Shown here: positions 448 to 38,737 of the stretch, piece by piece | Layout: every line of letters starts with the position of its first letter | Position numbering within the stretch: the first letter of the stretch is position 1 | DNA from: Escherichia phage vB_EcoD-Elw | Sequence record: OR621298 | DNA: 64,000 nucleotides | Direction: 5' to 3' (one strand) | Position numbers and translations under genes: made by a program | Notes under the pieces: generated by a model | What the model saw: only the letters and a program-made list of their open reading frames with translations | What the model was told of the DNA's origin: nothing | Database searches by the model: none

Positions 448-476
448 ATTATACAGATAATATAGCAGAATAGCAA
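448..476 (-). promoter_or_regulatory. sigma70-type early promoter (TTGCTA-17-TATAAT)
   Basis: On minus strand: TTGCTA, 17-nt spacer, TATAAT; same motif recurs throughout the early region. Confidence 0.6.
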
Positions 477-787: not shown

Positions 788-979
788 TTAGCTGAACCCC
801 TTTAAATATTTATACGTTTTATCTAACAACTCTTGTTTAGAGATTATACCATCACGATATTCAGTAATAAAATTATCTATGTTGGAGTCCTTTGATACAA
901 CGTTATCAGATAGCTCTGTGAATTTATTTGCTAAAAGATCTAATTCTTTGTAATTCACAAAACCTCCAGAATATGCCAT
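788..979 (-). CDS. hypothetical protein (63 aa)
   Basis: ORF only; no Shine-Dalgarno sequence, and the start codon lies inside the adjacent tRNA-like element. Confidence 0.3.
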   Translation of the reverse strand: MAYSGGFVNYKELDLLANKFTELSDNVVSKDSNIDNFITEYRDGIISKQELLDKTYKYLKGFS

Positions 980-1097
980 TCTAGACAGGACTCGAACCTG
1001 CTATCACTTGTGCGGACTTACGAGAACCATTCTTTCACTCGAATCGAACGAGCTTCTGCCCTAGCCAAGCTGGTTTCCCCATCAACCACGCTAGAAT
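978..1097 (-). ncRNA. anomalous tRNA-like element (two T-loop motifs, no encoded CCA)
   Basis: Two canonical T-arm motifs on minus strand (GCAGG-TTCGAGT-CCTGT and GCTCG-TTCGATT-CGAGT) 45 nt apart; only acceptor pairing found (ATTCTAG/CTAGAAT) spans about 120 nt. Confidence 0.3.
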
Positions 1098-1219
1098 GTT
1101 TGATTGTTTTCAGTGCAAGAGTCCGAGTCTTGGACACGACCGCTTCGCAAGTACATAGGCAGCTTATCATGAGTCAGCACTTCCGAATTGCTAGCTCCGT
1201 GTTCTGCACTGAGATTTTG

Positions 1220-4759: not shown

Positions 4760-4837
4760 TGGTGGCTCCCCGAGGATTCGAACCTACGTACCTTCCGGTT
4801 ATGAGCCGGGTGCTCATACCATATGAGCTTGAGAACC
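4760..4837 (-). tRNA. tRNA with anticodon CAT (elongator Met or Ile-lysidine type)
   Basis: Acceptor GGTTCTC/GGGAGCC (two G-U pairs), anticodon loop CTCATAA, T-loop TTCGAAT with weak T-stem, CCA. Confidence 0.55.
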
Positions 4838-9042: not shown

Positions 9043-9114
9043 TACCGACCGTAGGATTCGAACCTACATCTTCCACCAGTTACGGCTTGATAATACCAAT
9101 TATACTAGGACGGC
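9043..9114 (-). pseudogene. degenerate tRNA-like element (no CCA, no anticodon stem)
   Basis: Canonical T-arm GTAGG-TTCGAAT-CCTAC and 6-bp acceptor GCCGTCC/GGTCGGT, but no convincing anticodon arm and no encoded CCA. Confidence 0.35.
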
Positions 9115-28084: not shown

Positions 28085-30874
28085 GTGTTTTCTATTCTCC
28101 AAGGTCACGCCGGATTTTCTCGTGATTTAGCAACAGGTATTTGGCGAGAAATCAAAGCGGAAGATTATACCTTTGCCAAGCGATTCTCGAAAAAGCATCC
28201 AGAAGGTAAACCAGCTTCTATGCCCTTCAAATTTGATGTAATAGAAGAGCATGACCCGCAAAGCCTTGCCGAAATGTTACCACTTATGAGACGTTTAACG
28301 TCTGACCCTCATATCGTTGCGGTACGAGGTCGATGTCTTGCACCTAAAAATAACGTGCGACGTAAGAAAGGTAACTTTAATGTATCTAATCCTAGTAATA
28401 TTATTGCTATGGACGTGGATGGTATCCTAGATACCGGTGGGTATGACAAGTTTAACCTTGTTGGTATGGCCCGCCACATTATTAAGATGTTGAATAGTAT
28501 TAGTGAGGACATGTTCCCTCTTGATGCAGGCTTTATAGCTCATGCATCGTCTTCGGCTGGGCTTAAACCAGGTATCCGAATGCACTTAATGCTAGAATCT
28601 AACGTCAAGGTAACTCAGGGTCAGTTAAAGTTCTTATTTACATCTATCAACGATAGTAGTAAGCAAAAATTTGGTTTTGATATTGCCGACTTAGCTTATT
28701 ATTCATCTGTCCAGCTCCACTATTTTGCCGACCCCTTATTTAGTGATGGTATTGTTGATCCGTTTAAAGCGGAGAGTAAGCCACGTCTGGTGTATGTTAA
28801 AGGTTCGAAAGTAAATTTGCCCAATAATCTGGTTGACTATGAAACAACTAGAGGGGAGTTTAAGGAAGAGTTTTATTCTTTACTTGATCAAATTAAAGGC
28901 AAAAAGATCGCGTCTGATAAAGTAGAAGAAACCATCAGCGAATTGGAAGAAGCTGAGGATGGGGTGTACCTGCGTATTATCCCCAAACTATACCATAGAG
29001 CATTAGAGGATGGTGTTGATTTTGCATGGCTAGAACGTGAGATTAAACCCGCTTTATCTGAATATATTGCAACTAAAGATAACAGTCGTAATATTCAAGA
29101 TTACTTTAATAACGGTCGTAAGCAGGCTCTCAAAGCGTTTGTTAATAATTCTAAACGTGAGATTCCATTAAATCTGAAAGGTGTTCCGCTCAAGAAGTTA
29201 GAAGTGGATTCTCCACCAGAAGTTCCGTACCTGAAGATTAACATTGTGCCTCCAAAAGGCCATATAACATTTGTTAAGGCAAGTCTTGGTACTGGTAAAA
29301 CTACGGCAGTAACTAAATGGCTGGACGCAGGTGTTCTTCCTGGCAACTTTTTAGCAGTTACAAATACTAGAGCACTGGTATCTTCAAACGCTAAGAAATT
29401 TAGCGCAGGACAATATGATAAGTCTGTAGATATGCTCAACTTTAAACGTGGAGCTATTGATCGTATGTCCACAACTATTCACTCTTTGCATAAGTTCAAA
29501 AGTTTTATTGGTCAAATAGATACCATTTTTATTGATGAATGTGATGCTGTAATGAATGATCTATTATTCGCACCTGTTGTTAAGCAACGTCGCGAATGTA
29601 TTCAAGTTCTACGTGACATCCTCATGACAGCTAAAACTGTAATTCTATCAGATGGTGATATTAGTGCCGAAACTATTGAAGCATATGGTTCTCTAATTGA
29701 TTTTGATAAACCAGTAGCATTTTATAATCATCACCGTAAGATGCTGTCAAAAGCTCATGCTTATGAGTTCCCGGATGAGTCCAGTATTTGGGTTGCACTT
29801 CAGACTTCTCTAGAGATGGGTGAGAAATCTATCCTAGTATCTGATTGTGGGCCGGATGAACTGAATGAGAAGGGCATGGCGTTGCGTCGTAATACGGGTG
29901 CATTAGTTAAGGAAATCCACTCAAACTCTACGTCTGATGTAGATATTAGACGTATTCTGGATTACACAACTAATGAGCTAATTGACCAACAAATTGATTG
30001 CTTATTATGTAGTCCATCTGTAACGAGTGGTGTTGACTTTAACTATTTTGATAACGTATTCGTTATCACTAGAACTAGCAACCAAGCGCCAAACATGCGT
30101 TTCCAAGCAATCAGGCGCGACCGTGGTGCTCAGAATATCTATTATTTTATTGATAAATCCACTAGTGGGTTCTCCGCAGGTTCTGAACAATATAATATTG
30201 ATGAAGGTTGGCTGGAGTTAGCACAGCAATTATACGCACGTCGCAGAGAACTAGAATCTAGGAACTATACTAGTACTTTACGTTATTACTTGCTTGATCA
30301 GGGTGCAACTATTGATATTTTCAGCGAAAGCTGGGGAACTATTGAAGGTGCTGGTAAAGAATACACAGAAGAGCGAATCAAAGCTATCCTACATTCAACT
30401 CCGGATTACTGTGCACCACGTCATGCGGATGCGTATGAGGCTAAACTACTTCTTGTTCGCTATTATCATCTTGAGTCTATTAAAGATGTAACAGTTGAGC
30501 ATGTTGAACAATATATCAAAGATAAACCGAATGATCGAGCTGCATTCTTCCATAAGATGCACGAGATGTTCTGGGAAGATATTAAGAAGTGTTCAAATGT
30601 GACCATTAAACCATTCATAGAGGCTCTGAAAGGTAAGAAGAAAGACTTCTTCCTTAAAACAGGTCAGAGTGCTAACCCAAAATATGCTAGAATGTATCTT
30701 GGTATGATGGGTATTGGTAAGGATATGAACACTGAAAATATTGTAGACTGGTACAGAACCTATTGTAAAATCGAGTGTATGCCAATCCCATATAAGTTTA
30801 TGACTGATGAGGAGAAACATATGCATGATGAAGCAATGGCAGAGCTAGGTGCTAGAAATGACAGTGAAGAATAA
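28085..30874 (+). CDS. large P-loop NTPase, putative replication initiation / primase-helicase-like protein (929 aa)
   Basis: GTG start with AGGAG RBS; Walker A KASLGTGKTT and Walker B IFIDECDAV in the central region; N-terminal 300 aa with acidic motifs (IIAMDVDG, FDIADL) loosely resembling primase/polymerase-type domains. Confidence 0.65.
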   Translation: MFSILQGHAGFSRDLATGIWREIKAEDYTFAKRFSKKHPEGKPASMPFKFDVIEEHDPQSLAEMLPLMRRLTSDPHIVAVRGRCLAPKNNVRRKKGNFNVSNPSNIIAMDVDGILDTGGYDKFNLVGMARHIIKMLNSISEDMFPLDAGFIAHASSSAGLKPGIRMHLMLESNVKVTQGQLKFLFTSINDSSKQKFGFDIADLAYYSSVQLHYFADPLFSDGIVDPFKAESKPRLVYVKGSKVNLPNNLVDYETTRGEFKEEFYSLLDQIKGKKIASDKVEETISELEEAEDGVYLRIIPKLYHRALEDGVDFAWLEREIKPALSEYIATKDNSRNIQDYFNNGRKQALKAFVNNSKREIPLNLKGVPLKKLEVDSPPEVPYLKINIVPPKGHITFVKASLGTGKTTAVTKWLDAGVLPGNFLAVTNTRALVSSNAKKFSAGQYDKSVDMLNFKRGAIDRMSTTIHSLHKFKSFIGQIDTIFIDECDAVMNDLLFAPVVKQRRECIQVLRDILMTAKTVILSDGDISAETIEAYGSLIDFDKPVAFYNHHRKMLSKAHAYEFPDESSIWVALQTSLEMGEKSILVSDCGPDELNEKGMALRRNTGALVKEIHSNSTSDVDIRRILDYTTNELIDQQIDCLLCSPSVTSGVDFNYFDNVFVITRTSNQAPNMRFQAIRRDRGAQNIYYFIDKSTSGFSAGSEQYNIDEGWLELAQQLYARRRELESRNYTSTLRYYLLDQGATIDIFSESWGTIEGAGKEYTEERIKAILHSTPDYCAPRHADAYEAKLLLVRYYHLESIKDVTVEHVEQYIKDKPNDRAAFFHKMHEMFWEDIKKCSNVTIKPFIEALKGKKKDFFLKTGQSANPKYARMYLGMMGIGKDMNTENIVDWYRTYCKIECMPIPYKFMTDEEKHMHDEAMAELGARNDSEE

Positions 30875-31091
30875 AAAATGGGAAACAAGGAAGTTCCCAG
30901 TAAAAGAACGTAAAGTTCCTGTTTATGATACTTCGGAAAAGCTATGTAGGGTGGTACCACGTAGATTAGCTGGTATCCCTAACATATCCGAGTGGTTACT
31001 TAAACAACGGAAAACAAACGTGTCTCTTCGCATCGGCTTTGAATTAGATAAAGTCTATGCTGAACTTGCTTCTTTGCTCAAGGAATCGTAA
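30858..31091 (+). CDS. hypothetical protein (about 77 aa)
   Basis: Start placed at ATG 30858 (AGGTG RBS); overlaps the end of the 929-aa gene. Confidence 0.45.
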   Translation: MTVKNKKWETRKFPVKERKVPVYDTSEKLCRVVPRRLAGIPNISEWLLKQRKTNVSLRIGFELDKVYAELASLLKES

Positions 31092-31099
31092 AAATTTAT

Positions 31100-31128
31100 T
31101 TGCTTTCAGGAAAAATTTTCTGTATAAT
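31100..31128 (+). promoter_or_regulatory. sigma70-type promoter (TTGCTT-17-TATAAT, extended TG)
   Basis: Consensus motif followed by a GAGAGAGGAG RBS. Confidence 0.65.
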
Positions 31129-31159
31129 AGATTCATAAATTTGAGAGAGGAGTTTAAAT

Positions 31160-31864
31160 ATGGCCGGTTCTCGCAGAAAGAAACATATCCATGAAATCCC
31201 GGATGAAGTCTTTAAAAAAGTTATAGAGCATCTGGAGAACGGTGGTACTAAGAAAGCAGCTTGTGAGATGCTCGGCGTATCATCCAATCCAACTATGGAA
31301 AGGATGATTGAAGAGTGGCAAGACCGCCAGATTCAAGTTGCCGAAATGAAGAAAAAGAAACGTGGCACACTCATTGAAGGTATTGAGTTGGCCAACGTTA
31401 TTGAACAGTATTTATCTGGTGATTCTTTTGAAGAGATTGCCGATCGTAATTATCGCTCTGTAGCAATGGTTAAATCTGTTCTGGAACGCTATGGTGCTCT
31501 GCTTCGTTTGAACGATATTGTAGACCCGTTGAATCCTCCTATTATTCCTGATGATGCTGTAGCAGAAGAATTTGAAGTTGGTGAGCTTGTTTGGGTTCCT
31601 GGATACCAGTGTATCGGTGAAATCAAAAAAGCAATGGATAATCCTGTTGGTTGCTACCGTGTATGGCTTCTATCGGAAGGCAAACAACAGAACGTTCATT
31701 ATATGAATTATGAGCTGGCTTCTGTTAAACACCTGGAAAAGTTAGGAGTTGATGTAAAATCTCTGGGGTATAAATGGACTCGGGAAGAAGTCATTACGTT
31801 GATTAACGAAGCTGTTAAGGCCGCCTTGAAACTTGATAAAGAAAAAGGAAAACGCCGTGAGTAG
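31160..31864 (+). CDS. putative helix-turn-helix DNA-binding protein (234 aa)
   Basis: N-terminal HTH-like segment GGTKKAACEMLGVSSNPTMERMIEEW; basic C-terminus. Confidence 0.6.
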   Translation: MAGSRRKKHIHEIPDEVFKKVIEHLENGGTKKAACEMLGVSSNPTMERMIEEWQDRQIQVAEMKKKKRGTLIEGIELANVIEQYLSGDSFEEIADRNYRSVAMVKSVLERYGALLRLNDIVDPLNPPIIPDDAVAEEFEVGELVWVPGYQCIGEIKKAMDNPVGCYRVWLLSEGKQQNVHYMNYELASVKHLEKLGVDVKSLGYKWTREEVITLINEAVKAALKLDKEKGKRRE

Positions 31865-32108
31865 ACTAACTGATTTACTTAAAGATGGGGAAGTAAAAAC
31901 ACTATATCGTAGAAGCTGGGGTAACGATAATAACGGCTTAGTATTACTAACTTTAGATGCTGACTCGGATGTAGCTACTCAGCATACCTGGGTAGCCGGT
32001 AACTATCCATATAGCGAGGTTGTTTCATTAACAGTATGCGAAGCTATTGCAGACGATTGGGAGGTTGCCAGCATCGAGGATATGCTCGCTGTTGGCCTGG
32101 TGGAGTAA
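31857..32108 (+). CDS. hypothetical protein (about 83 aa)
   Basis: GTG start at 31857 preceded by AAGGAAA; track start 31833 is TTG. Confidence 0.45.
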   Translation: MSRLTDLLKDGEVKTLYRRSWGNDNNGLVLLTLDADSDVATQHTWVAGNYPYSEVVSLTVCEAIADDWEVASIEDMLAVGLVE

Positions 32109-32125
32109 CTACTTAAAAATTTCAG

Positions 32126-32154
32126 TTGCTTAATCCTATAATTCTTGATATAAT
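32126..32154 (+). promoter_or_regulatory. sigma70-type promoter (TTGCTT-17-TATAAT)
   Basis: Consensus motif. Confidence 0.65.
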
Positions 32155-32211
32155 ATTCTCATAGTTTGAAAGAACTATTCTGTTTAATTCTTAATTAAGG
32201 AAATATAAAAT

Positions 32212-32622
32212 ATGACTACTCCAACTCAGTGGACTGATGAACTGTTCGAAAAAATGTCTTCCGAATACGTTGCTCGTATGGAGCAATTCCCAGAGGATGA
32301 ACGTCCTGGTGTTAGCATGGAAATTGTTAGCGAAATTGCCCAGGAAAATGGTGTAACTCCGAACGGTTTTCGTATGAAGCTAACTAAAGCAGGTTTGTAC
32401 ATCAAGAAAGCTGCTGGCTCTGCTTCTAAATCTAGTGCATCTACTGGAGAAAAAGCTTCTGGTGGTTCTCGCACTTCTAAAGCTAAAGCTCATGCCGACC
32501 TTCGTTCCGCATTCTCTGATGCTGGCCTAGCACCAGATTTTCTGGATGATGCAATTATTGACAAACTGACCGGTAAAGCGGCTGCTCATCTGGCAGAAGC
32601 AATCCGAGCTATCACTAAGTAA
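32212..32622 (+). CDS. hypothetical protein (136 aa)
   Basis: ATG 32212 with AAGGAAAT RBS. Confidence 0.6.
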   Translation: MTTPTQWTDELFEKMSSEYVARMEQFPEDERPGVSMEIVSEIAQENGVTPNGFRMKLTKAGLYIKKAAGSASKSSASTGEKASGGSRTSKAKAHADLRSAFSDAGLAPDFLDDAIIDKLTGKAAAHLAEAIRAITK

Positions 32623-32659
32623 TTTTTAGATAAATCCACCAACAAAAGGAACTATAGCT

Positions 32660-32956
32660 ATGACTAAAGCTGAAATTATTGCACAGTGCGAAAAATTTGG
32701 TGAGTTTTATCTTCATTACGAGAAACTTCGTCAGAAAGGAACCACGTACCTTCAGGGTACGATGGAATTTGATCCAGCCCAAGATAAATATCTGGCTGAG
32801 CGTATTAAACGTGAACGTATTCGTAAAGCGAAAGATGATGAAATTCTTGTCTTCTCTCGTACTAATGATAGTTTCCGTTTTATTCCTGTCGAGAAAGTCC
32901 GTCGTGTGACTAGCCTCCAATCAGAGTTAGATCGTGCTTCTCCAGTAGGCCGATAA
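32660..32956 (+). CDS. hypothetical protein (98 aa)
   Basis: ATG 32660 with AAAGGAAC RBS; followed by a terminator. Confidence 0.6.
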   Translation: MTKAEIIAQCEKFGEFYLHYEKLRQKGTTYLQGTMEFDPAQDKYLAERIKRERIRKAKDDEILVFSRTNDSFRFIPVEKVRRVTSLQSELDRASPVGR

Positions 32957-32966
32957 GAAACCAATT

Positions 32967-32988
32967 AGCCCCTATATGGGGCTTTTTG
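32967..32988 (+). terminator. rho-independent terminator
   Basis: Stem AGCCCC/GGGGCT with TATAT loop followed by TTTTT. Confidence 0.65.
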
Positions 32989-33006
32989 TGTATTTGGGAT
33001 ATGTAA

Positions 33007-33315
33007 ATGAGCGAACAGGTAAATCAAAACTATGAAGGACACGTTGATGACCAGTCCATCATACTTTGGGAGAAGGAGGGGGAACAAGTAAGATTAACAG
33101 TATCTGAATTTCGTGGGAATCTATACATGGGTATTCGTTACTGGCTTCTTGATATTAATGATGAATGGTTTCCAACGAAATCTGGCTTCTCTTTTCCTTA
33201 CACCCTAGAAACAACATCACAGCTTTTCTATGCGTTTACACAGATTCTTAGCGAATCTGAGGTTTTACATGAAGTACAGAAACGAGCTGAAGAACTCAAA
33301 GCCAAGAATGCCTAG
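33007..33315 (+). CDS. hypothetical protein (102 aa), possible ssDNA-binding fold
   Basis: ATG 33007; weak resemblance to PC4/p15-like proteins (EFRGNLYMGIRYWLLD...WFPTKSGFSFP); assignment tentative. Confidence 0.55.
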   Translation: MSEQVNQNYEGHVDDQSIILWEKEGEQVRLTVSEFRGNLYMGIRYWLLDINDEWFPTKSGFSFPYTLETTSQLFYAFTQILSESEVLHEVQKRAEELKAKNA

Positions 33316-33342
33316 TTCTTGGCTTTTTCTTTATAAATGTAT

Positions 33343-33371
33343 TTGCTTTCAACTCAGTTTTGTTATATAAT
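33343..33371 (+). promoter_or_regulatory. sigma70-type promoter (TTGCTT-17-TATAAT)
   Basis: Consensus motif; a hairpin plus U-run at 33301-33334 precedes it. Confidence 0.65.
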
Positions 33372-33400
33372 ATTTATATAAATTGATAAGAGGATCAATT

Positions 33401-33589
33401 ATGAAAGTAACACTTCCAAAAATTCAAGCAAAGTTAAATCTAGTATCGAATGCTAGAAATAACTATCTAGATAACTTTGGTGGAATCAACGATAAAGCGT
33501 ACAAAGATGCGTGGTTGAAAGAAGCACAAGAGTTAGCCGATCTCATTGCTCAGTATAATAAAGAACTACAGGTAGAAATGAATGACTAA
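33401..33589 (+). CDS. hypothetical protein (62 aa)
   Basis: ATG 33401 with AGAGGA RBS. Confidence 0.5.
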   Translation: MKVTLPKIQAKLNLVSNARNNYLDNFGGINDKAYKDAWLKEAQELADLIAQYNKELQVEMND

Positions 33590-34553
33590 TGTAAAAGACT
33601 TTATTAAACGTTGCCAAGAAGCATATTATCAAGGTATGTCTTTAATCTCTGATGAGGAGTATGATTGCCTGGTAAAACGCTTCCCACTAGAAGAAGAGAT
33701 CGGGCCTAAGGGCGATATTCCACATCTGTATCGTATGTATTCTTTACAGAAAGTTTATTATAATCGTGGAGATAAACCCCCATTTAACCCATTAGGTCAG
33801 GTAGAAACTGACAAGTTAGATGGTTGTGCGATTTCTCTACTATATATTAATGGCGAATTTGTTCAAGCACTAACTCGTGGTAATGGTATTCTAGGGAATG
33901 ATGTCACAAGCAACGTAAGATTGCTGAACATTCCTAAAAAGATTTCCCAAAAAGTACCTACTCAAATCACTGGTGAAGTTCTAATTACAAAAGAAGTAGA
34001 AAATAAACGTAACTTTGCCTCTGGTGCTATTAACCTAAAAGATAGTGATGCTTTCGTACAACGTATCGGGGAAGGTGGTTTAATCTTCGTTGCATACGGT
34101 ATCCAGTGTTCTGCTGAATCTGTAGGTATTACAGAATCATATTTAAAAGATATGCTTTGGCTAGAGAATGAAGACTTCTTAACAGTTGTTAATGTGCGTT
34201 CCTTCTTTAGATGGATTCCGACGGACGGTAAAGTTGTTCGTATTAATGACAACAACAAATTCTTCCGAGAAGGCTGGACTAATAAATTCCCTCGCGGGGC
34301 GTTCGCTATTAAAGAGGATGAAGAAGGAGAGATTACAACTCTTACTAAAGTTGAATGGCAGGTAGGGGCTTCTGGTAAAGTAACTCCAGTTGGTTATTTC
34401 GAACCGGTAATTATTGATGATGCTACAATTGTTAAAGCGACTCTTAATAACGTTGATTATATTAACTCTCTCGATCTAGAGATCGGTTGCCAGATTCGAG
34501 TGATTCGTGCTGGTGGTGTAATCCCGTGCATAGTAGAGCGAGTATACTATTAA
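33582..34553 (+). CDS. NAD-dependent DNA ligase, N-terminal (adenylation) subunit
   Basis: 323 aa; KxDG adenylation motif in KLDGCAISLLYINGEFVQALTRGNG and an OB-fold-like C-terminal part; separate ORF from the Zn-finger/HhH/BRCT part. Confidence 0.8.
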   Translation: MTNVKDFIKRCQEAYYQGMSLISDEEYDCLVKRFPLEEEIGPKGDIPHLYRMYSLQKVYYNRGDKPPFNPLGQVETDKLDGCAISLLYINGEFVQALTRGNGILGNDVTSNVRLLNIPKKISQKVPTQITGEVLITKEVENKRNFASGAINLKDSDAFVQRIGEGGLIFVAYGIQCSAESVGITESYLKDMLWLENEDFLTVVNVRSFFRWIPTDGKVVRINDNNKFFREGWTNKFPRGAFAIKEDEEGEITTLTKVEWQVGASGKVTPVGYFEPVIIDDATIVKATLNNVDYINSLDLEIGCQIRVIRAGGVIPCIVERVYY

Positions 34554-34754
34554 TACATAACCCTTTGCTACCCATCTACCATATAGGAATTATAAAGTGG
34601 TTATTGACATTTTCGCCGCTTAGGTATATACTATTATCATTCAGTTGAGGGATAGAAAGTTATGGCGAGGGTAAGCAAAGTTAGTTAAAATTGTAGTTGC
34701 TAAATGCTTAAATACTTGCTATAATATTTATATAAATTGATAAGGAAGAAATTT

Positions 34755-35535
34755 GATGAAAATCGAAATTCCAACACAATGTCCCTCTTGTGGTTCTAAG
34801 CTAGATCTTGTCAACGGACAATTATTCTGTCGTAATAAGTCCAACTGTCCAGCGCAATCAAGCAAGTTAATTGAGAACTTCTGTTCAAAAATGAAGTTAA
34901 AGGGCTTTGGCCCAAAAACTATTGAGAAGCTGGAGCTGACGAAGATTTCAGAACTATTTTACCTAACCGAAGAAGATTTGGTTAGAGCCGTGGGTAGCAA
35001 GGTTGCCGCTAAGTTAATTAGCGAATTAAATACTAAAGTTCGCGGAGACATTGACTTTGGTTCAGTTCTCGGTTCTTTAGGAATCCCTCTAATTGGAGAG
35101 GTTGCAGCAAAGAAATTATCCCAAAATTGCACTAGCTTTCACGATGTGAAGGCTGACGGCAAGGCTGGAGAAAATTACAAAGCCTGGCTAAATTCCCCAC
35201 AAGGCAAGGATGTTATTAAACTACCGTGGAAATTTTCAACTGGTATTAAGGGCACTAAAGCTGACGTCATCATTACAGATGAATTAGTTGCCCAGCCAAA
35301 TGGAATCGCGGTATGTATTACCGGATCTTTGCAAGATTTTGCAAATCGAACGGATGCAACAAACTATTTAGAAGGTCTAGGATATACGGTTAAGAAATCC
35401 GTTACCAAAGACGTCAAATACCTAATCTGTGAGGATGAATCAAAACGTTCTTCCTCATCTTATAAGAAAGCCGAAACGAATGGGATAGAAATCCTGTCGA
35501 TTAAAGAACTATTGGAGAAAAATAATAATGTCTAA
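34755..35535 (+). CDS. NAD-dependent DNA ligase, C-terminal (Zn-finger/HhH/BRCT) subunit
   Basis: Start at ATG 34755 (AAGGAAG RBS); Cys4 finger CPSCGS...CRNKSNCPAQ, HhH-like region, BRCT-like C-terminus. Confidence 0.8.
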
Positions 35536-36295
35536 ACTGAACTGGAACGTAGAAGGTGTAACCGAGTCTCTGAAAGCAAAAGCCACTGCTCTGGGTGTTT
35601 CTGTAATCTCTCAAGAACAGGTAGCTGCTATCGCTGCTGAACTGGCTGCTGAAACTGGCAAAGATGTTACTGCTCGCTCTGTTGGCTCTAAACTGCGTAA
35701 AGAAGGTTTTGAAGTACAGAAAGCTAACGAAGTACAGAAATCCCCGTGGACTCCTGAGCAGGAAGCTGAACTGGTTGATTTCCTGAACGCTCATGCTGGT
35801 CAGTATACCTATGCTGAAATCGCTGCTGCTGTAGCTGGTGGTCAGTTCGGTGCTAAGCAGGTACAGGGTAAGATCCTGAGTCTGGAAATGACCGCTTCTG
35901 TTAAACCAACTGAAAAAGCTGCTGCTGTTCGTTCCTTTACTCCGGATGAAGAAACTGATTTTGTTAATCAGGTTGTTGCTGGTGCTACTATTGAAGCTAT
36001 CGCTGCTCACTTCGGCCGCAATATCAAGCAGATCCGTGGTAAAGCTCTGAGCCTGCTTCGTGAAGGTCGTATTGCTGCTATGCCGGTACAGGAAACTTCA
36101 AGTGCTAAAACTCGTGAAGATCTGTTAGAAGGTCTGGATCTGGTTAACATGACTGTTGCTGAGATCGCTGAGAAAACCGGTAAGTCTGAGCGTGGTGTTA
36201 AATCTATGCTGTCTCGTCGTGGTCTGGTTGCTAAGGACTATGATGGTGCCGCTAAGCGTGCTAAACTGGATGCAAAAGCTGCGGCTGCTGAATAA
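35528..36295 (+). CDS. Ala-rich protein with three HTH-like repeats (255 aa), probably abundant DNA-binding protein
   Basis: Three related segments (VSVISQEQVAAIAAELAAETGKDVTARSVGSKLRKEG; ATIEAIAAHFGRNIKQIRGKALSLLREG; MTVAEIAEKTGKSERGVKSMLSRRG); strongly E. coli-like codon usage; followed by a strong terminator. Confidence 0.65.
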   Translation: MSKLNWNVEGVTESLKAKATALGVSVISQEQVAAIAAELAAETGKDVTARSVGSKLRKEGFEVQKANEVQKSPWTPEQEAELVDFLNAHAGQYTYAEIAAAVAGGQFGAKQVQGKILSLEMTASVKPTEKAAAVRSFTPDEETDFVNQVVAGATIEAIAAHFGRNIKQIRGKALSLLREGRIAAMPVQETSSAKTREDLLEGLDLVNMTVAEIAEKTGKSERGVKSMLSRRGLVAKDYDGAAKRAKLDAKAAAAE

Positions 36296-36312
36296 TCTGG
36301 TAAATTAAACCT

Positions 36313-36346
36313 AAGGGGAGGGGGCTATGCTCCTTCCCCTTTTTGC
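36313..36346 (+). terminator. rho-independent terminator (GC-rich 10-bp stem plus U-run)
   Basis: GGGGAGGGGG..CTCCTTCCCC stem with the ATG at 36327 in its loop, followed by TTTTT. Confidence 0.6.
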
Positions 36347-36377
36347 ATTTAGAAGGCACGAAAGCGTGCAAAGGAGA

Positions 36378-37850
36378 ATGACCTTGTTTAACGTGCAAGC
36401 TGTAGTGTTGAAGATGCTTCTAGCTTCCGAACAGAAGCAAATAGCATTGGAAACATTCTCAAAACTGCATAAAGATCATTTTAATGACGCTTTCTCCTCA
36501 ATTTACCAAGCCGTCCAGAATTATTATAAAAAATATAACACAATGCCGTCCATTGACGCACTTATGCTTGAAGCTAATAGGAACGCCCGCCTTTCTCAAG
36601 CTCTAGTCGTCTTAGCTAACACTCAAATTCCAGAAGTGAGCATGGAACAGGCACTTGAAGTCCTAGAAGCCGAATATACACAGGATTTATTCCTGAAGCT
36701 TCTAGAAACAGACGTGCTTCAAGATTTAACAATGCTGGATCAGGGAGAAATTCTCAACCGAGTTGCCTCCCTTCACTTAAAATTAGAAGAGAAAGTAACG
36801 AATACTGGAAAAGTATTCAACGCAGATAACATGCGTATTTTCCAGAGAGAAGAAGATACCAAACTGAACTTAATCGCTCTTGGTATTTGTAATGAGTTCG
36901 ACGCTCAAATTGGTTTAGCTCGCACAGAAACGTTACTGCTTGGTGGTTGGCGTGGTACTGGTAAATCCATTATCTGTTCAAACATACAGGTTCAGCAATA
37001 TTTGAATGGAGATATTGCTCCATACTTCTCAATTGAGATGAAAGAACACGAAGTATTTAGACGTAATCTAGCCATGTTAGCTGGTGTATCAGCACTAGCA
37101 ATGCGTAATAATACTCTAGAAGGTGCAGCTCTGTTGAGATTAGCCAGAACTAGAGCCAGAATGTTTAATGGTGGTGAAGAGCTTTTTGATAACTTCGTTA
37201 AACAGTACACGATGGCTAAGATGAGTGATTTCTACGATATGGAGAGTAAGCTAATAGAGGGATATGAACTACATACTCCTATGATTATCGTTTATGACCC
37301 TGAACTGTCCATTACAACAGTTGACGTAGAATTAAATAAATTAGTTGCTAGATATGGTGATAAAGTTACAGTAGCTTTACTGGACTATATTAACCAAACC
37401 CGACTTCCAGATTCTAAAACCATTGATATGTATGACTGGAAAGAACAGATGGTTGTTAGCTCGTCTTTCAAATCTATCTGCCAGAAACATAACGTGGCTG
37501 GTGTAGCTCCTTACCAGATCGATCAAGATGGTAGAACACGTATGTCAAAGGGGATTCTTGATTCCGCAGACATGGCTGCTAATCTTAATGCTGCAAAAGC
37601 TGATAATGGTCAAGGTGCTATTATGTTTGACTTCGTTAAGACTCGTTCTTCTGATAGCGTGAAGTTTATGCCTAAGATGAACTGGGAAACTCTGCGAATG
37701 GATAATACAACTAACCTAGCAATGGAAGATATATCTCAAATGGAAGCTGAGTTCGTTATCCCTATTGAGAAGGATAAGCCGGCTCAACCTAAACGTGCTA
37801 AGAAAGACAAAACTGAAAATTTAACAGGTGAACAGGCCAGCGATATATGA
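36378..37850 (+). CDS. DnaB-like replicative helicase (start uncertain)
   Basis: Walker A GGWRGTGKS and Walker B-like IIVYDPE; longest ORF starts at ATG 36327 inside the terminator hairpin; ATG 36378 follows AAGGAG with a very short spacer. Confidence 0.65.
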   Translation: MTLFNVQAVVLKMLLASEQKQIALETFSKLHKDHFNDAFSSIYQAVQNYYKKYNTMPSIDALMLEANRNARLSQALVVLANTQIPEVSMEQALEVLEAEYTQDLFLKLLETDVLQDLTMLDQGEILNRVASLHLKLEEKVTNTGKVFNADNMRIFQREEDTKLNLIALGICNEFDAQIGLARTETLLLGGWRGTGKSIICSNIQVQQYLNGDIAPYFSIEMKEHEVFRRNLAMLAGVSALAMRNNTLEGAALLRLARTRARMFNGGEELFDNFVKQYTMAKMSDFYDMESKLIEGYELHTPMIIVYDPELSITTVDVELNKLVARYGDKVTVALLDYINQTRLPDSKTIDMYDWKEQMVVSSSFKSICQKHNVAGVAPYQIDQDGRTRMSKGILDSADMAANLNAAKADNGQGAIMFDFVKTRSSDSVKFMPKMNWETLRMDNTTNLAMEDISQMEAEFVIPIEKDKPAQPKRAKKDKTENLTGEQASDI

Positions 37851-38737
37851 GTAGAATAACAGAACTACTTGATCTGAAAGGCATTGAATATAAAGACACA
37901 GGTGGGGACATCCTCATCTGTTGTCTCAATCCAGATCATGACGATAAACACCCAAGTTTGCGTATTGATCCTGAAACAGGTATTATGCACTGCTTGAGTT
38001 GTGGCTTCGGTAAAGGTATACCGAGCATTTACCATTATTTTAATGAGACTCAGTACCGACAGTCTCCAAGACTATCACAGGTACGTAAAAAGATTTCAGA
38101 GATTAGGAATGGATCAACGAATCTTGCAATTCCTGAATCTGCTTACCTTTTCGAAGGTGATTTCCGAGGTATAAGTTCTAAGACCTTGAAGAAATATTTT
38201 GCTTTCCAACACCAAGCAGACTGGGAAGGCAGAATTGTATTCCCAATCACAGATGCTGTTGGACGCAATATCCTATTTTTGGGTCGTTCTATAAACAGTT
38301 CTGCCCCTCCTAAATACTTAGTAAAACCAAAACAAGTTTCACCGCCAATTTTTCCTGTACGATATAATACTCCAGTTCTTATTCTAGTTGAAGGCATCTT
38401 TGATATGCTGAACCTAGAGGATAATGGTATAGACTATGCTTCTTGCTGCTTTGGTACACATCAGTTTACTTCGGATAACATTGCAGATAAGTTCAGTCCT
38501 TATATTATTGCTGGGGTAAAAGTTGTTGTTATCTTACTAGATAATGATGCTTCTGGTAATAAAGCTGCACAAGCATTGGCTAAGCTAATTCGTACAAAAA
38601 CGCGTTTAACACCTGTAGTTGCTAACTTCCTCCTGCCTGAAGGCAAAGATCCAGGTGATTTAAACAAAGATGAAATTGATATGTTAGCAAAACGTATTGA
38701 AATTTTAGTTGCTGAATCGCTTAAAGATTTGGTATAA
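37847..38737 (+). CDS. DnaG-like DNA primase (Zn-finger plus TOPRIM)
   Basis: 296 aa; Zn finger CCLNPDHDDKHPSLRIDPETGIMHCLSCG; TOPRIM motifs ILVEGIFDM and LLDNDASGNKA; ATGA-coupled to the helicase. Confidence 0.85.
   Translation: MSRITELLDLKGIEYKDTGGDILICCLNPDHDDKHPSLRIDPETGIMHCLSCGFGKGIPSIYHYFNETQYRQSPRLSQVRKKISEIRNGSTNLAIPESAYLFEGDFRGISSKTLKKYFAFQHQADWEGRIVFPITDAVGRNILFLGRSINSSAPPKYLVKPKQVSPPIFPVRYNTPVLILVEGIFDMLNLEDNGIDYASCCFGTHQFTSDNIADKFSPYIIAGVKVVVILLDNDASGNKAAQALAKLIRTKTRLTPVVANFLLPEGKDPGDLNKDEIDMLAKRIEILVAESLKDLV

What the first reader, a model, noticed from the sequence alone, without database searches (positions are those of the whole stretch)
978..1100. Anomalous tRNA-like element with two T-loop motifs and no CCA
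Two canonical T-arm motifs lie 45 nt apart on the minus strand, but the only 7-bp acceptor pairing (ATTCTAG/CTAGAAT) encloses about 120 nt, too long for a normal or long-variable-arm tRNA. Unlike the other tRNAs here, no CCA is encoded. This could be a fused or degenerate tRNA pair, a tRNA-derived structured RNA, or a processing substrate.
Basis: seen in the sequence. Interest (0 to 1): 0.45.

Follow-up and report, generated by a model that had tools for sequence, protein, structure and literature searches.

The report
Phage tRNA carrying a conserved insert
This is the T5-type phage gene "RNA2": a transfer-RNA-shaped stable RNA whose anticodon loop is replaced by a conserved 51-base folded module, a design shared by many unrelated large phages but still without a known job.

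Summary
On the minus strand, 977-1097 holds a 121-nt element with a 7-bp acceptor stem, a D arm, two T-arm motifs and no encoded CCA. ARAGORN and Rfam do not call it.

It is not a fused or decayed tRNA pair. It is the orthologue of "rna2 / RNA2, tRNA-like stable RNA with unknown functions", annotated in phages T5, BF23 and phage 5.

New here is the anatomy. A complete tRNA chassis carries a conserved ~51-nt three-way junction in place of the 7-nt anticodon loop. The junction has a short stem, a second T-arm-like hairpin and a mini-hairpin with a UGG loop.

A covariance model finds more than 70 distinct members in T5-like, Acinetobacter T4-like, jumbo and uncultured phages. Most sit in tRNA arrays on the tRNA strand. 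One turned up in 185,579 cellular species genomes and none in 5,426 E. coli genomes. In 60 distinct sequences, 94% of base-pair cells pair, with heavy compensatory change.

It cannot decode. It is most likely cut out and stabilised like a tRNA, with the insert as the working surface. Function is unknown and it is dispensable in the laboratory. Known object, new family-level description.

The parts
977..1097 (-). Whole RNA2-family element, 121 nt from the first acceptor base to the discriminator G. The T5 annotation adds one 5' C (1098) and three 3' bases.
   Evidence: Model R1 scores it 87.2 bits. It is 93-98% identical to the annotated rna2 of T5, BF23 and phage 5.
1091..1097 (-). Acceptor stem, 5' strand (AUUCUAG).
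   Evidence: Pairs 7/7 with 978-984. All 7 pairs covary across the family (helix 1, 93% of cells paired).
1072..1087 (-). D arm (GGUU-GAUGGGGA-AACC) with GG in the loop.
   Evidence: All 4 pairs covary (helix 2, 96.6% paired). RNAalifold recovers it on its own.
1066..1070 (-). Anticodon-type stem, 5' strand (GCUUG).
   Evidence: Pairs with 1006-1010. All 5 pairs covary, 98% paired.
1062..1065 (-). 5' joining segment of the insert (GCUA; family consensus N-C-G/U-A).
   Evidence: Column make-up: C in 35 of 46 at position 2, A in 30 of 46 at position 4.
1058..1061 (-). Insert stem Px, 5' strand (GGGC).
   Evidence: The two inner G are invariant. Y-R with 1017 covaries (UA 19, CG 15, other 12). 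The first G covaries perfectly with the C of GCA at 1012 (GC 38, AU 8). The register is therefore not settled.
1037..1053 (-). Inner T-arm-like hairpin T1 (GCUCG-UUCGAUU-CGAGU).
   Evidence: 4 of 5 stem pairs covary. The loop is UUCRAUU in nearly all members, with UUCGACU or UUCAAAU in a few found by a scan that did not fix those bases.
1024..1032 (-). Mini-hairpin Py (GAA-UGG-UUC).
   Evidence: Variants GAA/UUC, GUA/UAC, CUA/UAG, UUA/UAA and CGUA/UACG. All 3 pairs show double-sided changes but only 74% of cells pair (helix 5). The second G of the loop is invariant and the first is G in 41 of 46.
1018..1023 (-). Conserved joining segment U-CGUAA.
   Evidence: C, U, A and A are invariant and G is present in 39 of 46. 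This is partly forced by the search pattern. UGUAA was seen in a relaxed scan.
1011..1017 (-). Px 3' strand (GUCC) followed by the 3' joining segment GCA.
   Evidence: UCC is invariant. GCA switches to AUA together with GGG to AGG.
1006..1010 (-). Anticodon-type stem, 3' strand (CAAGU).
985..1005 (-). Variable loop (GAUA) and the canonical T arm T2 (GCAGG-UUCGAGU-CCUGU).
   Evidence: helix 6, 96.6% paired; 3 of 5 pairs covary and the other 2 are invariant G-C.
977..984 (-). Acceptor stem 3' strand (CUAGAAU) plus discriminator G. It is followed by GCA, not CCA.

Best explanation
The element is the orthologue of phage T5 'RNA2'. It is a non-decoding RNA derived from a tRNA.

Shown:
- It has a complete tRNA chassis: a 7-bp acceptor stem, a D arm with GG, a 5-bp anticodon-type stem, a 4-nt variable loop and a canonical T arm.
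- The 7-nt anticodon loop is replaced by a conserved ~51-nt three-way junction. The junction consists of a short stem (GGGY/RUCC), a second T-arm-like hairpin and a 2-4-bp hairpin with a UGG loop. These are joined by conserved single strands (NCGA, WG.., UGAAA, CGUAA, GCA).
- The family is widespread in large phages that carry tRNA arrays. Members lie on the tRNA strand, often a few bases from a tRNA, and are essentially absent from cellular genomes.
- The chassis sequence drifts freely under compensatory change, whereas the insert is conserved in sequence.

Inferred:
- It is co-transcribed with the tRNAs. RNase P cuts the 5' end, and the 3' end is trimmed and perhaps given CCA, because the chassis looks like a tRNA to those enzymes. 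The chassis also makes it stable. This is the natural counterpart of the engineered 'tRNA scaffold'.
- The GG of the mini-hairpin docks on the inner T loop, as D-loop G18/G19 dock on the T loop of a tRNA, giving a second 'elbow' at the anticodon end.
- This insert is the working surface. It binds a partner that is not yet known, most plausibly a host or defence protein that handles tRNAs.
- It is an accessory function rather than a core one.
For: Identity:
- 93.6-97.5% identity over 1 kb to T5-like phages. The locus coincides with misc_RNA rna2, 'tRNA-like (stable) RNA with unknown functions', in AJ604531, AJ604530 and AY543070.

Structure:
- On 60 distinct sequences, 94.4% of 1683 pair cells are standard pairs and 611 cells changed on both sides. 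0 of 500 shuffles reach this, and partners slid by 1-3 columns pair only 35-50%.
- RNAalifold recovers the acceptor, D, anticodon-type, T1 and T2 stems without being told.
- Rfam's tRNA model matches four other family members end to end, treating the module as an insertion, at 31-48 bits against a gathering score of 29.

Distribution:
- 482 phage records match.
- IMG/VR and metagenome scans gave more than 70 distinct members, including Acinetobacter T4-like phages and contigs of 160-570 kb.
- 1 real hit in 185,579 species genomes and none in 5,426 E. coli genomes.

Context:
- 38 of 60 members have a same-strand tRNA within 500 nt, 25 of 60 within 100 nt, and no locus has a tRNA on the opposite strand.

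Not a decoder:
- The bases left beside the insert have C, not U, at the position of U33, and no conserved anticodon.

Accessory role:
- T5Mos lacks 30661-38625, which includes RNA2 at 32959-33083, and grows (PMC11464382; coordinates).
Against: - No experiment on function exists in anything I could read.
- 'Stable RNA' rests on a GenBank note. I could not read the primary papers.
- Processing by RNase P and 3' trimming are inferred from shape only.
- The window copy and most members lack an encoded CCA (6 of 60 have it). T5-type copies also lack U8 and A14, so recognition by tRNA enzymes may be partial.
- The docking of GG on the inner T loop involves invariant bases and so cannot be tested by covariation.
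- The Px register is ambiguous.
- Several conserved positions were fixed by my own search patterns, which inflates the apparent invariance of UUCRAUU and CRUAA.UCC.
- A few members (phage 133, AB2I3, L013, L014) have a weak acceptor or D arm, so the chassis is not always intact.
Confidence: 0.7

Rival explanations
1. Anti-defence decoy. The tRNA body lures a host nuclease or tRNA-modifying toxin (anticodon nucleases such as PrrC or PARIS AriB, the retron PtuAB, or toxins acting on the acceptor end). The bulky insert blocks or traps the enzyme and so spares real tRNAs. This is a specific version of the best explanation, not an exclusive alternative.
For: The same dispensable T5 region encodes tRNAs that neutralise PARIS and retron Eco7 (PMC11464382; PMC10644984). 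The family is phage-only and is tied to large tRNA arrays. RNA2 is dispensable in a laboratory host.
Against: No defence system is known to be countered by RNA2. The anticodon loop that most such nucleases read is absent. Most members lack an encoded CCA, which weakens the case for a decoy of toxins acting on the acceptor end. The strong sequence conservation of the insert across phages of very different hosts argues for a universal partner rather than a patchily distributed defence system.
Confidence: 0.25
2. Cis-acting processing or punctuation element. A tRNA-shaped signal recruits RNase P and 3' nucleases to cut the long early transcript and to set the ends or stability of neighbouring mRNAs. 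It would have no function in trans.
For: It lies between small ORFs and tRNAs on one strand. In the window the next ORF starts 0-20 nt after it. tRNA-like punctuation is known in other systems (my own knowledge).
Against: Any tRNA would serve that purpose. It does not explain a 51-nt insert conserved in sequence from T5-like phages to Acinetobacter T4-like and jumbo phages. Many members sit directly between two tRNAs, where no extra signal is needed.
Confidence: 0.07
3. Ligand-binding aptamer carried on a tRNA body. The RNA would sponge or sense a small molecule such as an alarmone or an immune signalling nucleotide.
For: A three-way junction with highly conserved joining strands and a T-loop is typical of riboswitch aptamers, and T-loops offer an intercalation gap (my own knowledge). 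The chassis would allow high copy number.
Against: No match to any Rfam riboswitch family, even at E<=10. There is no expression platform and no ligand candidate. The GG mini-hairpin already supplies the likely intercalating base.
Confidence: 0.05
4. Intron-containing tRNA. The insert is spliced out to give a working tRNA.
For: The insert sits exactly where the anticodon loop should be. The bases left on either side add up to 7 (4 + 3). Other tRNAs with 55-70-nt inserts exist in phage arrays.
Against: The 7 leftover bases (for example GCUA+GCA) have C at the place of the universal U33 and a pyrimidine at the place of purine 37, and there is no conserved anticodon. At 51 nt it is far too short for a group I intron, and Rfam reports none. 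The insert, not the exons, is the conserved part.
Confidence: 0.03
5. Decayed or fused tRNA pair: a pseudogene with no function.
For: Two T-arm motifs, no CCA, and not called by tRNA finders.
Against: The architecture is conserved with compensatory changes in at least 60 distinct sequences from several phage families. There is only one acceptor stem, one D arm and one anticodon-type stem.
Confidence: 0.02
6. tmRNA-like or aminoacylated translation factor that enters the ribosome.
For: tRNA-like acceptor and T-arm domain with a non-anticodon domain below it. From memory, the CCGAGGG...CUCGUAA..CCGCA string of some members recalls pseudoknot 1 of E. coli tmRNA. This is a lead only and was not tested.
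Against: ARAGORN finds no tmRNA. A 1-nt indel between close relatives breaks any reading frame. There is no conserved discriminator, no G3:U70 and no conserved first pair (pair 1-72 is AU 27, UA 15, GC 10). CCA is usually not encoded.
Confidence: 0.03

Closest known systems
Phage T5 / BF23 / phage 5 'rna2' (RNA2), GenBank AY543070, AJ604530, AJ604531
   Same: Same gene. It occupies the same position, downstream of tRNA-Asp and ORF trn 2.10 and upstream of RNAIV and promoter P13a, at 93-98% identity. It is annotated there as a tRNA-like stable RNA of unknown function.
   Different: The window copy has GCA where T5 has ACA after the stem, and an extra small ORF follows it, as in phage 5. The records give no structure, no family and no function.
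Ordinary tRNA (Rfam RF00005)
   Same: Acceptor stem, D arm, anticodon-type stem, variable loop and T arm all have tRNA geometry. Four family members pass Rfam's tRNA threshold end to end.
   Different: There is no 7-nt anticodon loop, no U33 and no anticodon. A 51-nt module takes their place. CCA is mostly not encoded. The window copy scores below threshold.
Other phage 'stable RNAs' in tRNA clusters: T4 species 1 and 2 RNAs (rnaC, rnaD), T5 RNA1 and RNA3
   Same: Small RNAs of unknown function co-located with phage tRNA genes. rnaC and RNA1 also end in a T arm and an acceptor-like stem.
   Different: Not the same family. T4 rnaC scores 24.8 bits with the RNA2 model, no better than ordinary tRNAs. 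RNA1 has a long anticodon arm and a long variable arm instead of the three-way junction.
Engineered 'tRNA scaffold' for expressing recombinant RNA in E. coli (the approach referred to in PMC3753655; details are my own knowledge)
   Same: Same design principle. The anticodon stem of a tRNA carries a foreign RNA, and the tRNA body gives correct processing and protection from nucleases.
   Different: That one is man-made. Here the arrangement is natural and conserved. This is a functional analogy only, not homology.
Bacterial Y RNA-like YrlA (PMC4201824)
   Same: A modular non-coding RNA in which a tRNA-mimicking module with a T arm and D-arm-like elements is joined to a second functional module. 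It is also found in some phages.
   Different: No Rfam match to YrlA at E<=10. In RNA2 the RNA ends form a true acceptor stem rather than a Ro-binding stem. No Ro orthologue was looked for.
tmRNA
   Same: A tRNA-like acceptor and T-arm domain with a non-anticodon domain below it.
   Different: No tag reading frame and a full D arm. It is about a third of the size. It is not called by ARAGORN.

Membership tests
T5 RNA2 (annotated misc_RNA rna2) | Sequence orthology to the annotated rna2 of T5, BF23 and phage 5 | tested here: met
   93.6% identity to AJ604531 over 1 kb and 97.5% to phage OSYSP. The element aligns base for base with T5 rna2 at AY543070 32959-33083 and scores 87 bits with the family model.
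T5 RNA2 (annotated misc_RNA rna2) | Synteny: between ORF trn 2.10 / tRNA-Asp and RNAIV / promoter P13a, on the tRNA strand | tested here: met
   A P13a-like promoter lies at 448-476(-) in the window.
T5 RNA2 (annotated misc_RNA rna2) | Accumulates as a stable RNA of about 125 nt | not testable with these tools
   Only the GenBank note says so. The primary papers are not held.
tRNA (RF00005) | Cloverleaf arms: 7-bp acceptor stem, D arm, 5-bp anticodon stem and a T arm with a UUCRA loop | tested here: met
tRNA (RF00005) | 7-nt anticodon loop with U33, an anticodon and purine 37 | tested here: not met
   The loop is replaced by 51 nt. The flanking bases have C at the place of U33.
tRNA (RF00005) | Reaches Rfam's gathering score or is called by ARAGORN | tested here: not met
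   The window copy is not reported, even at E<=10. Four other members do pass.
tRNA (RF00005) | 3' CCA, encoded or added, and aminoacylation | tested here: inconclusive
   CCA is not encoded here and is encoded in only 6 of 60 members. Addition after transcription and charging cannot be tested in silico.
Intron-containing tRNA | Removing the insert restores a canonical anticodon loop; the insert has group I or bulge-helix-bulge features | tested here: not met
tmRNA | Tag-peptide reading frame with a resume codon; detected by ARAGORN | tested here: not met
   An indel that breaks any frame separates close relatives.
T4 species 1 RNA (rnaC) | Homology to rnaC | tested here: not met
   24.8 bits with model R1, within the range of ordinary tRNAs. 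No BLAST match to T4.
YrlA / bacterial Y RNA | Match to the Rfam model; a Ro-binding stem formed by the RNA ends | tested here: not met
   No Rfam hit at E<=10. The RNA ends form a tRNA acceptor stem.

The most novel reading that the evidence does not exclude
RNA2 is the founding member of a phage-wide, phage-only class of natural 'tRNA-scaffolded' effector RNAs. The tRNA body hijacks the host's tRNA processing and protection. The conserved second-elbow module is a trans-acting effector, for example an inhibitor or decoy of a universal tRNA-handling or tRNA-targeting host factor. Other tRNAs with different long inserts in phage arrays (T5 RNA1, L092, L018) would be further cargoes of the same strategy.
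Probability: 0.3. Interest if true: 0.8.

Novelty: already known. Interest (0 to 1): 0.5.

Why it matters
The small stable RNAs that sit among the tRNA genes of T4 and T5 have had no explanation for decades. The T5 tRNA region has recently turned out to be a counter-defence locus. This analysis shows that RNA2 is a precisely conserved, phage-specific design, not a broken tRNA: a tRNA chassis with a 51-nt module. It is shared by T5-like, T4-like and jumbo phages. That turns a vague annotation into a testable object with defined parts to mutate. It also gives annotators a model for a gene that tRNA finders and Rfam miss and that several genome records mis-annotate as protein-coding. If the chassis-plus-cargo reading holds, nature anticipated the engineered tRNA scaffold.

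Tried and rejected
- ARAGORN and Rfam (gathering score and E<=10) on the locus gave nothing.
- Single-sequence folding gave z = -0.7, which is uninformative.
- Plain MAFFT alignments mis-registered the 5' half. I replaced them with an anchor-based, N-padded alignment and then with model-based alignments.
- Pairing between the strand after Px ('AGAA') and the strand before CGUAA works in T5 and Klebsiella phages but in different registers, and not elsewhere. I dropped it in favour of the UGG mini-hairpin.
- A tmRNA-PK1-like pseudoknot (CGAG with CUCG) is not supported outside T5-like copies.
- A reading frame in the insert is broken by a 1-nt indel between relatives.
- The intron reading was rejected on the loop bases.
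- Homology to T4 rnaC/rnaD was rejected.
- Gene neighbours gave only small unknown ORFs. The exception is one YqeY/GatB-C-terminal-like ORF 200 nt upstream in L010. Its homologues are in jumbo and T4-like phages but not in T5-likes, so there is no consistent partner.
- Six literature searches that ran (three more calls failed on term format) found no paper on RNA2 or on a natural tRNA-scaffold family. The Glukhov 2018 paper on T5 deletions is not held.
- The ~95-nt stretch just upstream folds no better than shuffles.

Full report
**What the window is.** The window comes from a T5-like phage (Tequintavirus, Demerecviridae). Bases 600-1600 are 97.5% identical to Escherichia phage OSYSP and 93.6% identical to the tRNA region of Salmonella phage 5. 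Its first 9 kb carry 13 ARAGORN tRNAs and two more Rfam-only tRNAs, all on the minus strand.

**Checking the observation.**
- The minus strand of 977-1097 reads AUUCUAG...CUAGAAU-G. This is a perfect 7-bp pairing that encloses 121 nt.
- It contains two T-arm motifs, at 1037-1053 and 985-1001.
- It is followed by GCA, whereas 14 of the 15 tRNAs in the window end in an encoded CCA (the Rfam-only one at 9043-9114 does not).
- ARAGORN and Rfam report nothing there, even at E<=10.
- The fold energy of the single sequence is unremarkable, z = -0.7.

**It is an annotated gene.** In AJ604531 (phage 5), AJ604530 (BF23) and AY543070 (T5) the same stretch is annotated as misc_RNA rna2, 'RNA2, tRNA-like (stable) RNA with unknown functions', 125 nt. 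The T5 feature begins one base before my acceptor stem and ends three bases after the discriminator. The object is therefore known, with no structure or function attached. Rfam 15 has no family for it.

**Relatives.**
- BLAST of the 156-nt region finds 482 phage records. Most are T5-like phages of Salmonella, Escherichia and Klebsiella. Yersinia phiR2-01 and Pectobacterium My1 also match.
- Unexpectedly, so do T4-like Acinetobacter phages. In phage 133 it lies between tRNA-Gly and tRNA-Cys.
- A pattern built from the conserved core gave 42 IMG/VR loci, 70 metagenome loci and 6 loci from genomes.
- A covariance model (R1) built from a hand-anchored seed separates members, at 44-108 bits, from ordinary tRNAs. 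Ordinary tRNAs score at most 41 bits because they match the chassis with the insert deleted.
- The window has one copy, at 87.2 bits.
- A second scan with different anchors added 14 more members.
- Host contigs range from 18 kb to 570 kb, and one is 1.46 Mb.
- Only one of the six genome hits is real, and it lies on a 167-kb contig that looks like a phage.
- 5,426 complete E. coli genomes have no match. The family is essentially phage-only.

**Anatomy.** Lining up the sequences shows a full tRNA chassis:
- a 7-bp acceptor stem;
- two or three linker bases, UA in most non-T5 members;
- a 4-bp D stem with GG in its loop;
- a 5-bp anticodon-type stem;
- a 3-5-nt variable loop;
- a canonical T arm;
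- a discriminator.

Where the 7-nt anticodon loop should be there are about 51 nt. In order, these are:
- a 3-4-nt joining strand (N-C-G/U-A);
- GGGY;
- 3-6 nt beginning with W-G;
- a T-arm-like hairpin (4-5 bp, loop UUCRAUU);
- a linker, often UGAAA, which in some members hosts an extra hairpin;
- a 2-4-bp hairpin with a UGG loop;
- N0-3 followed by CGUAA;
- RUCC;
- GCA.

**Statistical support.**
- On 60 distinct sequences, 94.4% of 1683 pair cells are standard pairs and 611 cells changed on both sides. No shuffle out of 500 reaches these values. Sliding the partners by 1-3 columns drops pairing to 35-50%.
- Every pair of the acceptor, D and anticodon-type stems covaries. So do 4 of 5 pairs in the inner T arm and 3 of 5 in the outer T arm.
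- RNAalifold finds the same five helices without being given them.
- In the insert, the GGGY/RUCC stem has only one covarying pair (UA 19, CG 15, other 12).
- The first G of GGG covaries perfectly with the C of GCA (GC 38, AU 8). A neighbouring A/G switch accompanies this change. The register of this short stem is therefore unsettled, and the eight switched sequences may stem from few events.
- The UGG mini-hairpin shows GAA/UUC, GUA/UAC, CUA/UAG, UUA/UAA and CGUA/UACG variants, but only 74% of its cells pair. I regard it as likely, not proven.

Two caveats apply. The seed alignment was fitted to the structure, and my search patterns fixed several loop bases, so their invariance is overstated. 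The relaxed scan did find UUCGACU, UUCAAAU and UGUAA variants.

**What it is not.**
- *Not a fused or decayed tRNA pair.* There is one set of chassis arms, and selection clearly maintains the fold.
- *Not a decoder.* The leftover loop bases have C at the place of U33, a pyrimidine at the place of purine 37, and no conserved anticodon.
- *Not an intron-bearing tRNA,* for the same reason, and because the insert rather than the 'exons' is the conserved part.
- *Not a tmRNA.* ARAGORN is negative and no reading frame survives a 1-nt indel between relatives.
- *Not likely charged by a particular synthetase.* The discriminator and the first acceptor pairs are not conserved, and only 6 of 60 members encode CCA.
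- *Not the same family as T4 species 1 RNA,* which scores 24.8 bits.

**Context.** Of 60 distinct members, 25 have a tRNA on the same strand within 100 nt, 38 within 500 nt and 45 within 2 kb. None of the loci has a tRNA on the opposite strand. Four members with a more orthodox chassis pass Rfam's tRNA threshold over the full model, with the module treated as an insertion. This independently confirms that the chassis is a tRNA. In T5 the gene lies inside the 30661-38625 deletion of the viable strain T5Mos (PMC11464382; coordinates). It is therefore dispensable on a laboratory host, like the neighbouring tRNAs that counter PARIS and a retron.

**How it most likely works.**
- *Shown:* the architecture, its conservation, its restriction to phages, its placement in tRNA arrays and its dispensability.
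- *Inferred from the established rule that RNase P and the 3' maturation enzymes recognise the acceptor/T-arm shape of tRNAs:* the RNA is released from the early polycistronic transcript like its tRNA neighbours and is stable for the same reason. This is the same logic as the engineered tRNA scaffold.
- *Inferred from the tRNA precedent of D-loop G18/G19 docking on the T loop:* the GG of the mini-hairpin docks on the inner T loop, giving a second elbow at the far end of the anticodon arm.
- *Inferred from the pattern of conservation (chassis free to drift, insert fixed):* the insert is the functional surface.
- *Unknown:* what it binds. I rank a tRNA-handling or tRNA-targeting host protein first, the anti-defence decoy being the most specific form of that idea. 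A pure cis processing signal, a ligand sponge, splicing, decay and a tmRNA-like role follow, with the confidences given.

**Verdict.**
- The finding is real and correctly located.
- Its 'anomalous tRNA' reading is right in spirit, but the 'fused or degenerate' option is wrong.
- The object is already annotated as T5 RNA2.
- What this work adds is a structural model, a family of more than 70 distinct members across unrelated phage groups, and evidence that the family is phage-specific and absent from Rfam.
- Interest is moderate. It is an old unexplained RNA that is now well defined and directly testable, but its function is still open.

Noticed in passing
window 4763-4837 (-) and 9043-9114 (-): Rfam calls two more tRNAs (40.3 and 35.5 bits) that ARAGORN misses. 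The second has no encoded CCA (it ends ...GGTCGGTA), unlike every other tRNA in the window.
   Followed up: partly
window about 1110-1207 (-): A ~95-nt stretch closed by AGUGCAGA/UCUUGCACU sits directly upstream of RNA2 and is unannotated in T5. Pectobacterium phage My1 has a shorter one at the same place with a different closing helix (ACAGAGU/ACUCUGU; L004 337-393). Fold z-scores are only about -1.
   Followed up: partly
window 788-979 (-): A 63-aa ORF, the counterpart of 'ORF trn 2.10.1' of phage 5 and absent from T5, starts with an ATG that overlaps the last 3 nt of the RNA. An alternative GTG start with a GGAGG ribosome-binding site lies about 20 nt further on.
   Followed up: no
L003 386-532 (Yersinia phiR2-01 g056); also NBSal003 and others: Several GenBank records place a 'hypothetical protein' CDS on top of the RNA2 element. 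This is probably mis-annotation of a non-coding gene.
   Followed up: no
L128 502-645 (T5 rna1) and L051 1409-1547 (T4 rnaC): T5 RNA1 is another tRNA-like RNA. It has a long anticodon arm (loop ACAUCCGC) and a long variable arm (GAGAUA-AAUGGUC-UAUCUC). It shares the string GGUUGAGAUA(A)AUGG with T4 species 1 RNA, which hints that these two old 'stable RNAs' are related to each other.
   Followed up: partly
L092 1967-2098; L054 1016-1161; L018 6361-6492: Other tRNAs or tRNA-like genes in phage or MAG tRNA arrays carry unrelated 55-70-nt inserts at the anticodon loop. L092 passes Rfam tRNA at 47 bits. tRNAs with long inserts may be a wider phenomenon.
   Followed up: no
L010 3005-3508: A YqeY / GatB-C-terminal-like ORF (a tRNA-binding domain family; Pfam PF09424, E = 1e-15) lies 200 nt upstream of the RNA2-family element in a 164-kb phage contig. 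Homologues occur in jumbo and T4-like phages, once next to RtcB, but not in T5-like phages.
   Followed up: partly
L084 4391-4509: A second, diverged copy of the element (47.6 bits) lies on the same contig as a normal copy. It lacks the CGUAA.UCC string.
   Followed up: no
L062 (contig Ga0308158_10000004, 1.46 Mb) and L059 (570 kb): Family members occur on very large contigs. The 8.3-kb L062 locus alone holds 47 tRNA genes. Whether the 1.46-Mb contig is viral or cellular is unknown.
   Followed up: no
window 448-476 (-): A promoter-like site, TTGCTA-17-TATAAT (10 of 12), lies at the position of T5 promoter P13a. The RNAIV-equivalent region lies between it and the small ORF.
   Followed up: no
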